Assembly (NCBI RefSeq): GCF_024502345.1
Contig: NZ_JALDNN010000003.1
DNA from: Escherichia coli
GTDB lineage: Bacteria; Pseudomonadota; Gammaproteobacteria; Enterobacterales; Enterobacteriaceae
DNA: 64,000 nucleotides
Reading direction: 5' to 3' (one strand)
The notes beneath the pieces are model-generated. The model searched no databases. It saw only the letters and a program-made list of their open reading frames with translations, and was not told the DNA's origin. Position numbers and translations under genes: made by a program. Below, in pieces: positions 51,413 through 52,603 of this stretch (its first letter is position 1; each line of letters starts with the position of its first letter).

Positions 51413-52603
51413 CTACTCATCCAGCGCCTCACGCATGAACTTCGTCATCGCTTTCTTACCTGCGTCAATGTTACGGATATAGCGGGAAACCATTTCTGCA
51501 TTGCTCCAGTTACCCATCTCCATGATCTGCAAGTGCGTGTACCCGGCATCAGCAAGTTCGATGGCGCCGCCAACCCTAACGCTGTGACCAGTCCAGCATC
51601 GGGTGCCCGCTTCCTGCGGATGAAGTTCATCCCAAAACGCTTCAAAGGCCCGGAGCAATGTGTTTTTACTGAGCATACCCTCATCATCGACAATAATGGG
51701 CTTTCCATTTTTCCCGATCGGGGGGCGGGTAGGTCGGTAAGGCATATTATGATTTTTCAGCAGCGTATTGATCTCATTCCCTTTGCTCCGGAGACCCCAT
51801 CCAGGGGGCATATATCCGCTGTCCTGAAAGTTAACTGCCTGGAAGAGATAATCCTTCGGATGGCTTTGCTGGTCCCTTTTGACCATACCCATCAGCCTGA
51901 TTAGGGTGGCAGTGAGATGAGGGGTCAGATGATAGGTAAGCAGGGTACTGACAGTGGATTTTGTCCGGTACACCGTCAGGGTAAAACTGCCTGTCTGTTC
52001 ATTCAGCACAAGGTCCTGCATCCGAATGCGCCGAAGTTCTGCTGAGCGCAACAGTGTTTCAAAACCTGTCCAGATAATGCAAAGGTCTCGGAGTTTGCGC
52101 ACCGACTGTGTCGTACCGTGGGCTTTAATCAAAGCTTTCAGGTCGGAGACTAGGAATGGCGTTGCCTGACGAGTCACTTTTTGCTCTCGGGCTTCAGCTT
52201 GTTCGAGGCTTGCAAGAATACTCTTGACCTTGGATGTGATGATCCCAGGGCGATCGAGTGCTTTCCTATGGATACTGTTCAGCGCGTGCAGACAACCTTT
52301 AATGCTGCTGTGTGACAGCGAGCCCTGAAGATAGTCCAGATAGGACAACAACGGGGGTTGAGTCACCGGGAGAGAACTGGCAGGCCAGGCTTCGTTTCCC
52401 TCCTTTCCTGCATTAGCTTGGTACCACTCGTTCCAGGAACGCAGCCATTGAAGGTAAGTTTTAGCCGTGTGGTATTTCATATGAGAAAAGTAAAAAATGA
52501 GCTCCTTAAGGTCATTATTGGGCACCTCAAACGTGACCAGTTCCTGATGGAGGTCTGAGTCTTCAAACTGTCTGGTTACTGGCTTGCTGTTCATGGTGGT
52601 CAC
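51413..52603 (-). CDS. Cre-like tyrosine site-specific recombinase
   Basis: C-terminal catalytic region GHSVRVGGAIELADAGYTHLQIMEMGNWSNAEMVSRYIRNID aligns with Cre GHSARVGAARDMARAGVSIPEIMQAGGWTNVNIVMNYIRNLD; the RSAELRRIRMQDL segment supplies the upstream conserved Arg. Confidence 0.65.
   Translation of the reverse strand: MTTMNSKPVTRQFEDSDLHQELVTFEVPNNDLKELIFYFSHMKYHTAKTYLQWLRSWNEWYQANAGKEGNEAWPASSLPVTQPPLLSYLDYLQGSLSHSSIKGCLHALNSIHRKALDRPGIITSKVKSILASLEQAEAREQKVTRQATPFLVSDLKALIKAHGTTQSVRKLRDLCIIWTGFETLLRSAELRRIRMQDLVLNEQTGSFTLTVYRTKSTVSTLLTYHLTPHLTATLIRLMGMVKRDQQSHPKDYLFQAVNFQDSGYMPPGWGLRSKGNEINTLLKNHNMPYRPTRPPIGKNGKPIIVDDEGMLSKNTLLRAFEAFWDELHPQEAGTRCWTGHSVRVGGAIELADAGYTHLQIMEMGNWSNAEMVSRYIRNIDAGKKAMTKFMREALDE

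What the first reader, a model, noticed from the sequence alone, without database searches (positions are those of the whole stretch)
51413..52603. Cre-like tyrosine recombinase without an obvious lox-type site nearby
The C-terminal catalytic region parallels Cre closely. Such recombinases usually act on a nearby site made of two 13-bp arms around an 8-bp spacer for multimer resolution. I saw only a short 6-7 bp inverted repeat (TATGAAC-agg-TTCATA, about 52650-52670) upstream, not a convincing lox-like site.
Basis: partly seen in the sequence, partly recalled or inferred. Interest (0 to 1): 0.4.

Follow-up and report, generated by a model that had tools for sequence, protein, structure and literature searches.

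The report
SOS-controlled Cre-like plasmid recombinase
This is the intact Cre-like recombinase of IncHI resistance plasmids, already shown in plasmid R27 to back up the host system that separates plasmid dimers; what I add is that its promoter carries a conserved DNA-damage (LexA) switch and that its target site is not next to the gene.

Summary
Window 51413-52603 (- strand; likely start ATG 52594, 393 aa) encodes a Cre-type tyrosine recombinase with all six Cre catalytic residues, and no 13-8-13 site lies within 1 kb.

The window is an IncHI1 plasmid. The protein is 98% identical to R27 R0183. A 2025 paper showed that R27 is lost when this gene is deleted, but only in xerC, xerD or ftsK hosts. 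It is therefore a redundant dimer-resolution system. Its site was not reported.

New here:
- **LexA box.** A high-scoring box (52611-52630) abuts the extended -10 of the recombinase promoter. It is the only such hit in 64 kb. An equivalent box sits just upstream of the gene in all 11 homologous loci examined, down to 35% identity.
- **Synteny.** The order hha / recombinase / tus-homologue is conserved family-wide. In this window a 9-kb IS-rich insertion breaks it.
- **No lox-like dyad.** None of the 11 family members scanned has a conserved one within 700 bp.
- **In-window palindrome (55394-55427).** It behaves like a structural hairpin, not a protein site.
- **Better candidate, outside the window.** R27 146785-146818 has invariant arms and a variable spacer of fixed 8 bp in IncHI1 and IncHI2, and it marks a mosaic boundary. 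This is unproven.

Proposed role: SOS-gated, FtsK-independent dimer resolution.

The parts
51413..52594 (-). Cre-type tyrosine recombinase gene (393 aa from ATG 52594; the open frame runs on to a GTG at 52603). Orthologue of R27 R0183.
   Evidence: ORF. PDB phmmer returns Cre at E about 1e-23. Pfam PF00589. Catalytic R/E/K/H/R/W/Y are invariant against Cre. The AF2 model has its best Foldseek match in Cre, E 1e-16, TM 0.72. It is 386/393 identical to the R27 protein.
52611..52630 (-). LexA (SOS) box. On the coding strand it reads AGCTGTAAATAAAAACAGTG (CTGT-N8-ACAG at 52613-52628). It starts 1 nt after the -10 and ends 16 nt before the ATG.
   Evidence: It is the only CTGT-N8-ACAG in the window. 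It scores 19.8 bits on a PSSM built from 17 E. coli SOS boxes and is the only hit of 12 bits or more in 64 kb. An equivalent box lies just upstream of the gene in 11/11 homologous loci. The controls are recovered: R27 umuD 24.2, the annotated P1 LexA site 19.0, the intI1 box 15.8.
52631..52659 (-). Predicted sigma-70 promoter of the recombinase gene: -35 TTCATA (52659-52654), 17-nt spacer, -10 TAAAAT (52636-52631). The TG of the extended -10 (TGCTAAAAT, 52639-52631) falls within the spacer.
   Evidence: Promoter scan: 9/12 matches with TG. The block is conserved in IncHI1, IncHI1B/IncP and IncHI2 and in the Photorhabdus upstream sequence.
52654..52669 (.). It overlaps the -35 hexamer.
   Evidence: Sequence. 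It is not palindromic in IncHI2 homologues.
52809..53021 (+). hha (Hha/YmoA family), transcribed divergently from the recombinase gene.
   Evidence: Annotation of an identical plasmid. An HHA gene sits next to the recombinase gene in most homologous loci.
51403..51415 (.). Loop remnant plus right half (CGCAGGGGCGCTA) of the bidirectional hairpin TAGCGCCC-gcag-GGGCGCTA, which overlaps the recombinase stop codon. The left half is at 42383-42390.
   Evidence: Comparison with uninterrupted pHCM1. The hairpin is conserved in IncHI2 and L003.
42391..51402 (.). 9,012-bp IS-rich insertion that separates the recombinase gene from its ancestral 3' neighbours. It contains a truncated IS3-family gene, IS26, transport and metabolic genes, and IS1 at 50558-51325.
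   Evidence: blastn against pHCM1 and R27. Pfam rve on 42763-43596. Annotation of the matching plasmid.
40217..41176 (+). Tus (replication terminus-binding protein) homologue. It is the ancestral near neighbour of the recombinase gene.
   Evidence: Pfam Ter 6.7e-20. A Ter-family gene lies 1-2 kb 3' of the recombinase gene in IncHI1, IncHI2, pLVPK-like and metagenomic relatives.
55394..55427 (.). Only near-perfect 13-8-13 palindrome in the window: CTTAATGCTAATG gacgcata CATTAGAATTAAG. It lies 2.8 kb from the gene start. I judge it a structural hairpin rather than the recombinase site.
   Evidence: Scan and shuffles: 1 observed against 0.06 expected. In a related plasmid the arms change by compensatory substitutions and the spacer shrinks to 6. 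R27 and the window each carry a different uncompensated arm change.

Best explanation
The gene encodes the IncHI-family Cre-type tyrosine recombinase (orthologue of R27 R0183).

**Shown here.** It is intact, has the full Cre catalytic set and a Cre-like two-domain fold, and sits in a conserved hha / recombinase / tus-homologue block. Its promoter is immediately followed by a LexA operator that is conserved across the whole family.

**Shown by others for the 98%-identical R27 protein.** It provides plasmid dimer resolution that is redundant with host XerCD acting at an FtsK-dependent xrs site.

**Inferred.**
- LexA keeps the gene repressed.
- DNA damage, or the chronic SOS of xer/ftsK mutants, de-represses it.
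- That is when RecA-driven recombination makes more dimers and SulA-blocked septation removes the septal FtsK that XerCD/xrs needs.
- The recombinase then resolves dimers without FtsK, at a plasmid site that is not adjacent to the gene.
- The best candidate for that site is a 13-8-13 palindrome about 13 kb away in R27, outside this window.
For: **Identity and fold.**

**Plasmid type and orthology.**

**Function.** PMC11724359 reports that delta-R0183 R27 is stable in wild type but 'readily lost' in xerC, xerD or ftsK-ATPase strains, and that delta-xrs R27 is stable in wild type. The authors conclude there are two redundant systems. PMC4853401 found no stability defect for the single deletion.

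**LexA control.**
- The box scores 19.8 bits and is the only hit of 12 bits or more in the window. It is the second best hit in all of R27 after umuD.
- It abuts the extended -10.
- A box is present immediately upstream of the coding region in 11/11 loci, with different box sequences, at 35-84% protein identity.
- The background rate of hits of 12 bits or more is 3.8e-5 per bp.

**Site not adjacent.**

**Remote candidate.**
- R27 146785-146818 and IncHI2 pEC21 112928-112961 share the ATGGGATTTA / TAAATCCCAT arms with different 8-bp spacers.
- Four alleles have invariant arms and spacers of CCCCGAAT, CCCATAAT, CCGATAAT and ATTAGGAG.
- Sequence identity steps across it: 49% on the left against 99-100% on the right in one comparison, and 96-100% on the left against 80-86% on the right in another.
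- No site-specific recombinase gene other than this one appears in the R27 annotation.
Against: - No experiment shows LexA binding or SOS induction of this gene.
- The PSSM was built from E. coli SOS boxes recalled from memory. It did recover three independent known sites.
- The recombination site is unidentified.
- The remote candidate lies between two divergent promoters and could be an operator for an unrelated regulator.
- It is 12.8 kb from the gene in R27 and 53 kb away in one IncHI2 plasmid, which is unusual for Cre-type systems. It is not in this window.
- The two identity steps at it are best explained by a single block exchange. The 20-bp identical stretch there could just have allowed homologous recombination.
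- The SulA/FtsK rationale is inference from general knowledge of Xer biology.
- The R27 deletion phenotype does not by itself prove resolution at a specific site.
Confidence: 0.6

Rival explanations
1. The recombinase acts on the in-window palindrome at 55394-55427, a true 13-8-13 lox-like site 2.8 kb upstream of the gene.
For: It is the only 13-8-13 dyad with 1 or fewer mismatches in 64 kb, against 0.06 expected from shuffles. It belongs to the IncHI1 backbone, and its record counts track those of the recombinase gene in PLSDB. It is retained in R27.
Against: Its variation is the reverse of what a protein-recognised site shows. In the 85%-identical lineage the outer arm bases change in compensating pairs (CTTAAT/ATTAAG becomes CCCAAC/GTTGGG) and the spacer loses 2 bp, from 8 to 6. 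Changing the length of the strand-exchange region would be expected to disrupt a Cre-type site. Nothing equivalent exists in IncHI2 or other relatives. In pHCM1 it lies about 29 kb from the gene.
Confidence: 0.08
2. The main job of the recombinase is SOS-induced DNA rearrangement rather than dimer resolution. Examples would be cointegration or module exchange between related plasmids at a conserved site, or integration and excision. On this view the stability effect in xer mutants is a by-product.
For: SOS-controlled tyrosine recombinases that promote rearrangement are known, namely integron integrases (own knowledge; the intI1 box is recovered). A block exchange between IncHI lineages ends at the candidate palindrome. 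The family carries a conserved insert of about 55 residues in the DNA-binding region that Cre lacks.
Against: The only phenotype reported is plasmid loss in xer/ftsK hosts. The gene sits in the vertically inherited backbone next to tus and hha in every lineage. No cassette arrays or repeated sites were found near it. Foldseek places integron integrase far behind Cre, 3e-7 against 1e-16.
Confidence: 0.15
3. The LexA-like box is a fortuitous AT-rich promoter feature and the gene is not SOS-regulated. It is a constitutively expressed, low-level resolvase like Cre.
For: CTGT-N8-ACAG is expected 0.65 times per 64 kb by chance, and 46 of 100 shuffles had at least one. There are no binding data. The R27 recombinase compensates in xer mutants without added DNA damage.
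Against: - **Position.** The box sits between the -10 and the ribosome-binding site.
- **Score.** It falls in the mid-range of real boxes.
- **Conservation.** CTG-N10-CAG is kept while the surrounding sequence is unalignable, down to 35% protein identity. The scores are 12.0-24.0 bits in 11/11 loci, against a background of 3.8e-5 per bp.
- **Host state.** xer, dif and ftsK mutants are themselves SOS-induced (own knowledge: Hendricks et al. 2000).
Confidence: 0.12
4. The gene is an inactive relic.
For: Single deletions give no phenotype in wild-type hosts. In this plasmid the 3' neighbourhood has been disrupted.
Against: The frame is full-length, all catalytic residues are invariant across 15 family members, and there is a synthetic phenotype with xer/ftsK. 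tblastn matched 3,760 plasmids in PLSDB, of which more than 1,400 are family members at 60% identity or higher and most of the rest are the roughly 36%-identical Klebsiella-type lineage.
Confidence: 0.02

Closest known systems
Cre/loxP of phage-plasmid P1
   Same: The catalytic residues and the two-domain fold match, and Cre is the best and almost the only PDB match. The replicon type (a low-copy plasmid) and the role in resolving dimers independently of FtsK for the chemistry also match. P1 too has a LexA site in the lox-cre region (annotated at P1 46-65).
   Different: - Identity is only about 25%.
- This family has extra N-terminal helices and a conserved insert of about 55 residues between the K and H-x-x-R motifs. 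The insert is modelled with low confidence.
- loxP lies about 0.4 kb upstream of cre, whereas no lox-like site lies within 0.7-1 kb here.
- The P1 LexA site is annotated with the divergent P2coi promoter, not a cre promoter. Here the box abuts the recombinase promoter itself.
R27 Y-rec (R0183), described in PMC11724359 (Nucleic Acids Res 2025)
   Same: It is the same protein: 386/393 identical, with the same hha and tus neighbours.
   Different: That work established redundancy with XerCD/xrs. The passages I read report neither the target site nor the regulation. In this window an insertion separates the gene from tus, and the R27 xrs is not in the window.
Integron integrases (IntI) under LexA control
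   Same: They are tyrosine recombinases whose promoters carry a LexA box, so recombination is coupled to SOS and to conjugation (PMC3108266 and PMC2958807 are listed; the mechanism is own knowledge). They also carry an extra segment between the K and H-x-x-R motifs.
   Different: IntI is a much weaker structural match (3e-7 against 1e-16). NCBIfam's integron/XerA-type model scores 16 bits against a cut-off of 220. No attI/attC-like array lies nearby.
Engineered-use Cre-type systems (Dre/rox, VCre, Vika, Panto, YR series)
   Same: They are simple Cre-type enzymes found by homology. D6 Dre and a Pantoea plasmid enzyme (27% identical) appear as weak hits.
   Different: Their sites were found as 13-15 bp inverted repeats around an 8-bp spacer within 1 kb of the gene (PMC10250229). 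That search rule fails for this family.
Host XerCD at plasmid xrs or chromosomal dif
   Same: Both are tyrosine recombinases that resolve dimers of the same plasmid.
   Different: The XerC model scores 19 bits against a cut-off of 335. XerCD/xrs on R27 needs FtsK. The plasmid enzyme compensates when FtsK ATPase is dead, so it is FtsK-independent.

Membership tests
Cre-type (simple) tyrosine recombinases | Catalytic R-K-H-R-W-Y set | tested here: met
   R186, K215, H340, R343, W366 and Y375 align with Cre R173, K201, H289, R292, W315 and Y324. They are invariant in 16 sequences.
Cre-type (simple) tyrosine recombinases | Helical core-binding domain plus catalytic domain with Cre-like topology | tested here: met
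   AF2 model with mean pLDDT 76. The top 33 Foldseek matches in PDB are all Cre or Tre, E down to 1e-16, TM 0.72 on the target.
Cre-type (simple) tyrosine recombinases | 34-bp site of two 13-bp inverted arms around an 8-bp spacer, close to the gene | tested here: not met
   There is none within 1 kb in the window. No conserved dyad lies within 700 bp in 11 family loci.
Cre-type (simple) tyrosine recombinases | Recombines such a site without accessory factors | not testable with these tools
   A remote 13-8-13 candidate exists in IncHI1 and IncHI2. Activity needs an in vivo or in vitro assay.
Plasmid multimer-resolution systems | Plasmid-encoded site-specific recombinase in the conserved backbone | tested here: met
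   It is in the IncHI1 backbone and syntenic in IncHI2 and relatives.
Plasmid multimer-resolution systems | Loss of the recombinase destabilises the plasmid | not testable with these tools
   Reported for the 98%-identical R27 gene, but only in xerC, xerD or ftsK hosts (PMC11724359).
Plasmid multimer-resolution systems | Defined cis-acting resolution site | tested here: inconclusive
   Candidates only. The one at 55394-55427 is disfavoured. R27 146785-146818 is favoured but unproven.
LexA (SOS) regulon | Operator matching the gammaproteobacterial CTG-N10-CAG consensus with a score in the range of known boxes | tested here: met
   The box scores 19.8 bits, against 12.9-26.7 for the known boxes. 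It is a unique hit in the window.
LexA (SOS) regulon | Operator overlaps or abuts the promoter of the regulated gene | tested here: met
   The box starts 1 nt after the -10 TAAAAT.
LexA (SOS) regulon | Operator conserved in orthologues | tested here: met
   Present in 11/11 loci. In ten it ends 8-27 nt before the called start. In the eleventh it lies inside a probable 5' over-extension of the gene call.
LexA (SOS) regulon | LexA binding and DNA-damage induction | not testable with these tools
   Needs EMSA or footprinting and reporter assays.
XerC/XerD | Scores above the equivalog model cut-off | tested here: not met
   TIGR02224 scores 19 bits against a cut-off of 335.
Integron integrase | IntI-type sequence and structure, with adjacent attI and cassette array | tested here: not met
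   NF040815 scores 16 bits against 220. VchIntIA ranks below all Cre entries. No repeat array lies near the gene.

The most novel reading that the evidence does not exclude
The IncHI family has an SOS-gated 'emergency' dimer-resolution system.

- LexA keeps a Cre-type recombinase off in normal growth.
- Under SOS, homologous recombination rises and SulA-blocked division disables the FtsK-dependent XerCD/xrs pathway.
- The recombinase is then induced and resolves plasmid dimers at a remote lox-like site: CnATGGGATTTA-N8-TAAATCCCATAG at R27 146785-146818, which is conserved in IncHI2.
- The same site also serves as a crossover point for module exchange between IncHI lineages.
Probability: 0.3. 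Interest if true: 0.65.

Novelty: new variant of a known kind. Interest (0 to 1): 0.45.

Why it matters
IncHI1 and IncHI2 plasmids, and Klebsiella plasmids that carry the roughly 36%-identical relative, spread multidrug resistance, so how they stay stable matters. tblastn matched 3,760 plasmids in PLSDB.

The gene is already known to back up XerCD in R27. Why a plasmid keeps two resolution systems, and where this one acts, is still open.

A conserved LexA operator gives a concrete and easily tested answer to the first question. The plasmid system would be reserved for SOS conditions, when the division-coupled host system cannot work. That would link antibiotic-induced DNA damage to plasmid maintenance.

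The remote palindrome gives a specific candidate for the second question. If confirmed, it would also add a Cre-type enzyme and site pair that the usual 'look within 1 kb' discovery rule cannot find.

Tried and rejected
1. **Lox-like site next to the gene.** Scans with 13-bp arms, spacers of 4-10 nt and up to 3 mismatches in the window, and relaxed dyad scans of 700 bp on each side in 11 family loci, gave nothing conserved. The hairpins at the 3' end of the gene look like terminators: GC-rich 8-bp stems with 4-nt loops in IncHI1 and IncHI2, and a 15-4-15 stem in the pLVPK-like lineage.

It overlaps the -35 hexamer and is not conserved as a palindrome.

3. **The palindrome at 55394-55427.** Disfavoured, because its arms co-vary and its spacer length changes.

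4. **The large conserved intergenic region about 5 kb 3' of the gene.** It holds a terminator hairpin and a promoter-like motif, not a dyad site.

5. **E. coli-type Ter cores (GTTGTAAC) flanking the gene, to delimit a terminus.** None is nearby.

6. **The R27 XerCD site (xrs) as the target.** It is absent from the window. Delta-xrs R27 is stable in wild type, so the plasmid enzyme must act elsewhere.

7. **The 9-kb insertion as a product of this recombinase.** The junction lies in the loop of the terminator hairpin with only a 1-nt overlap, and the insert is full of IS elements. The sub-terminal 9-bp inverted repeats remain unexplained, but the arms do not resemble the target.

8. **Searching 100,044 species' genomes for the candidate palindrome.** This returned 13 hits. 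Only two are IncHI2-like contigs, and the rest are unrelated hairpins, so there was no independent test of linkage to the recombinase.

9. **Walking upstream in a 54%-identical relative to find an equivalent site.** Synteny is broken by a cus operon.

10. **Scanning a pLVPK-like plasmid for a remote dyad.** About 117 of 140 kb was scanned. The only candidate is the hairpin just 3' of the gene.

11. **Supplementary site tables of the Cre-type discovery paper.** Not held.
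Full report
**Observation.** The longest frame on the - strand at 51413-52603 gives 396 aa from a GTG. Public annotations of identical plasmids start at the ATG at 52594 (393 aa), which is preceded by AGGTGA.

The protein matches only Cre and its engineered derivative Tre among all PDB chains (E 7e-24 to 2e-21, two aligned stretches). It hits Pfam Phage_integrase at 3e-11. The XerC and XerA/integron models of NCBIfam score far below their cut-offs.

In an alignment of 15 family members with Cre, the invariant columns include R186, E189, K215, H340, R343, W366 and Y375 (396-aa numbering). These are Cre R173, E176, K201, H289, R292, W315 and Y324.

An AlphaFold model (mean pLDDT 76) has Cre as its top 33 Foldseek matches (E 1e-16, TM 0.72). 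Integron integrase and XerH follow nine orders of magnitude behind.

The family differs from Cre by two extra N-terminal helices. It also carries a conserved insert of about 55 residues, with motifs GYMPxGWxLRSxG and DDxGMLSxNTLLRAFE, between the lysine and the H-x-x-R box. The insert is modelled with low confidence.

**Where it is.** The window is an IncHI1 plasmid. It maps collinearly onto R27 apart from insertions.

The gene is the orthologue of R27 R0183, 386/393 identical.

A graded series of relatives was examined: 84, 66, 63, 62, 55, 54, 44, 40, 40, 38 and 36% identity. They come from IncHI1B/IncP, Photorhabdus, IncHI2, metagenomic contigs, Rahnella and Klebsiella-type IncFIB plasmids. 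Most loci show the same block:
- hha transcribed divergently on the 5' side;
- on the 3' side two small convergent ORFs and a Tus (Pfam Ter) homologue;
- often a CoiA_N-like ORF beyond hha.

In this window the 3' half of the block is displaced. A 9,012-bp IS-rich segment (42391-51402, ending in IS1 at 50558-51325) is inserted 10 bp past the stop codon. It sits in the loop of the hairpin TAGCGCCC-gcag-GGGCGCTA. As a result tus now lies at 40217-41176.

**No lox-like site nearby.** Within 1 kb there is no 13-(6-8)-13 dyad with 2 or fewer mismatches. Hits with 3 mismatches are at chance level.

It overlaps the -35 hexamer and is not palindromic in IncHI2.

Relaxed dyad scans of 700 bp on each side in 11 family loci found nothing conserved in position or sequence. 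The absence is therefore a family trait. This explains why the published 'palindrome within 1 kb' discovery rule for Cre-type enzymes (PMC10250229) would not pick this family up.

**A conserved LexA operator.** Aligning the hha-recombinase intergenic regions showed one block conserved from IncHI1 to IncHI2. It contains:
- a -35 TTCATA;
- a 17-nt spacer;
- an extended -10 TGCTAAAAT, which the promoter scan also found;
- immediately after that, CTGTAAATAAAAACAG.

This is the only CTGT-N8-ACAG in the 64-kb window.

I built a position matrix from 17 E. coli SOS boxes. That list comes from my own knowledge and not from a database. With it, the site at 52611-52630 scores 19.8 bits, inside the 12.9-26.7 range of the training boxes. 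It is the only hit of 12 bits or more in the window.

The matrix recovers three independent known sites:
- the R27 umuD box (24.2 bits);
- the LexA site annotated in P1 at 46-65 (19.0 bits);
- the intI1 box of a class 1 integron (15.8 bits).

In R27 the recombinase box is the second best hit of the whole plasmid.

All 11 homologous loci carry a box of 12.0-24.0 bits. In ten it ends 8-27 nt before the called start codon. In the eleventh it lies inside a probable 5' over-extension of the gene call. Each follows a -10-like hexamer, although the surrounding DNA is unalignable between the distant lineages. With a background of 3.8e-5 such hits per bp, this cannot be chance. I found no paper reporting it.

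**What is known about function.** Two papers bear on the R27 gene.
- A deletion scan found no stability defect for the single deletion of R0183 (PMC4853401).
- A 2025 study found that delta-R0183 R27 is stable in wild type but readily lost in xerC, xerD or FtsK-ATPase mutants, and that deleting the XerCD site (xrs) alone is harmless (PMC11724359).
- That study concluded R27 has two redundant dimer-resolution systems. In the passages I read it does not identify the recombinase's site or its regulation.

The xrs sequence is at R27 135820 and is not in this window. Because delta-xrs R27 is stable in wild type, the plasmid enzyme must act at another site. This is inference.

**Proposed mechanism.**
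- *Shown:* the gene is an intact Cre-type enzyme with a LexA-type operator abutting its promoter, conserved across the family.
- *From the literature:* it compensates for loss of XerCD/FtsK.
- *Inferred:* LexA represses the gene in undisturbed cells.
- *Inferred:* SOS induction switches it on. That is when RecA-mediated exchange makes more dimers and SulA blocks septation.
- *Established knowledge:* Xer recombination at dif-type sites requires septal FtsK and cell division.
- *Inferred:* the FtsK-dependent pathway is therefore unavailable under SOS. xer, dif and ftsK mutants are themselves chronically SOS-induced (own knowledge), which would explain why the plasmid enzyme compensates in exactly those hosts.
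- *Possible:* SOS triggered by conjugative entry (PMC2958807, listed) is a second occasion for expression.

**Candidate sites.**

*(a) In the window.* The only near-perfect 13-8-13 dyad is CTTAATGCTAATG-gacgcata-CATTAGAATTAAG at 55394-55427, with 0.06 expected from shuffles.
- In the 85%-identical IncHI1B/IncP lineage the outer arm bases are replaced by compensating pairs and the spacer is 6 nt.
- R27 and the window each carry a different uncompensated arm change.
- Pairing is preserved, sequence is not, and loop length is free. That is how a structural hairpin behaves, not a recombinase core.
- No counterpart was found in IncHI2.

*(b) Outside the window.* Whole-plasmid scans of R27 and of an IncHI2 plasmid found one dyad common to both:
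- R27 146785-146818: ACGATGGGATTTA-ccccgaat-TAAATCCCATAGT.
- pEC21 112928-112961: ACAATGGGATTTA-attaggag-TAAATCCCATAGG.

Evidence for (b):
- Across four alleles the arms are invariant. The spacer is always 8 bp but varies: CCCCGAAT, CCCATAAT, CCGATAAT, ATTAGGAG. The flanks are 15-50% diverged.
- Sequence identity steps at the palindrome. R27 against a Klebsiella-borne IncHI1 fragment is about 49% in the window immediately left of the core, within a diverged tract of some 240 bp, and 99-100% on the right. R27 against pGMI17 is 96-100% on the left and 80-86% on the right.
- Fine mapping shows both comparisons share a second boundary near R27 145.0 kb. They therefore reflect one block exchange, not two.
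- No other site-specific recombinase gene appears in the R27 annotation.

Evidence against (b):
- It lies between two divergent promoter-like elements, for a DUF4942 operon and a DUF6884 gene. It could be an operator.
- It is 12.8 kb from the gene in R27 and 53 kb away in pEC21.
- A scan of 100,044 species' genomes added only two IncHI2-like contigs.

I put (b) at about 0.3 and (a) at about 0.08. Otherwise the site is unknown.

**Comparison with known systems.** It works like Cre/loxP as a plasmid dimer resolvase, and it is a Cre-type enzyme by catalytic set and fold. It fails the family habit of a gene-adjacent lox-like site.
- P1 also has a LexA site between loxP and cre, but it is annotated with the divergent coi promoter.
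- LexA control of a tyrosine recombinase is otherwise the hallmark of integron integrases. This protein resembles those only distantly.

**Verdict.** The finding is correct. The gene itself is already described (R27 Y-rec). The new points are the family-wide SOS operator, the conserved hha / recombinase / tus block, the family-wide lack of an adjacent site, and a specific remote candidate. Interest is moderate at 0.45. It is a known kind of system with an unreported and testable regulatory twist, and its site remains unsolved.

Noticed in passing
window 42391-51402: A 9,012-bp IS-rich insertion sits in the 4-nt loop of the hairpin at the recombinase stop codon, with only a 1-nt junction overlap. 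It holds a truncated IS3-family gene, IS26, ABC/MlaD transporter genes, a serine-dehydratase-like gene, a truncated Cys/Met PLP enzyme gene and IS1. It carries sub-terminal 9-bp inverted repeats, TATATAGTA at 42399-42407 and TACTATATA at 51390-51398, that I could not explain.
   Followed up: partly
window 42477-42509: A 13-7-13 palindrome, AACGTACATACTG tgtataa TGGTATGTACGTT, is followed by a T-run. It lies just inside the left end of the insertion and looks like a terminator. There is no gene upstream of it in the present arrangement.
   Followed up: no
window 40217-41176; also L003-L014: A plasmid-borne Tus homologue (Pfam Ter 7e-20) lies 1-2 kb from the recombinase gene in every lineage examined. 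No E. coli-type Ter core (GTTGTAAC) was found near it, so its binding sites are unknown.
   Followed up: partly
L002 1-17200 and L003 1-7630: In IncHI1B/IncP plasmids a Tn4371-like conjugative element is inserted in the hha-recombinase intergenic region, at a T-rich stretch just upstream of the recombinase promoter. It carries an integrase, ParB, RepA, ParA, a relaxase and trb genes.
   Followed up: no
R27 108459-108578 (L017 8459-8578): An array of five overlapping 13-7-13 palindromes, AGTGACCCTATGT...ACATAGGGTCACT, at 22-bp spacing lies between mobI and the next gene. It is probably part of the transfer origin region.
   Followed up: no
IncHI2 pEC21 159022-162855 (L022 9022-12855): Eight 13-8-13 palindromes of the type CAACGGTAGTGAC-N8-CTCACTACCGTTG are scattered over about 4 kb. 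Their function is unknown.
   Followed up: no
window 23684-23731; L004 17039-17076; R27 342-389: Overlapping GGGAGAAATCCC / GGGATTTCTCCC-type palindromes recur in intergenic gaps. In the loci examined they lie between roughly 300-aa paralogous ORFs of the IncHI backbone. This looks like a plasmid-specific repeated hairpin family.
   Followed up: no
R27 145000-146800 (L017 45000-46800): The block carrying DUF4942, part of a 406-aa coiled-coil gene and the left half of the intergenic region has been exchanged between IncHI lineages. It is 98-100% identical between R27 and pGMI17-003_1, whose flanks are 80-95% identical. It is 50-95% identical to an allele whose flanks are about 100% identical to R27.
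   Followed up: partly
window 58408-64000: The last 5.6 kb of the window has no counterpart in R27 or in any fetched locus. It contains ORFs of 275, 695 and 536 aa that I did not characterise.
   Followed up: no
IncHI2 pEC21 130676-130709 (L021 30676-30709): A perfect 13-8-13 palindrome, CCGCTGATACTGT acataacc ACAGTATCAGCGG, contains a high-scoring LexA-like box (18.1 bits). It lies in the resistance region near sul1.
   Followed up: no
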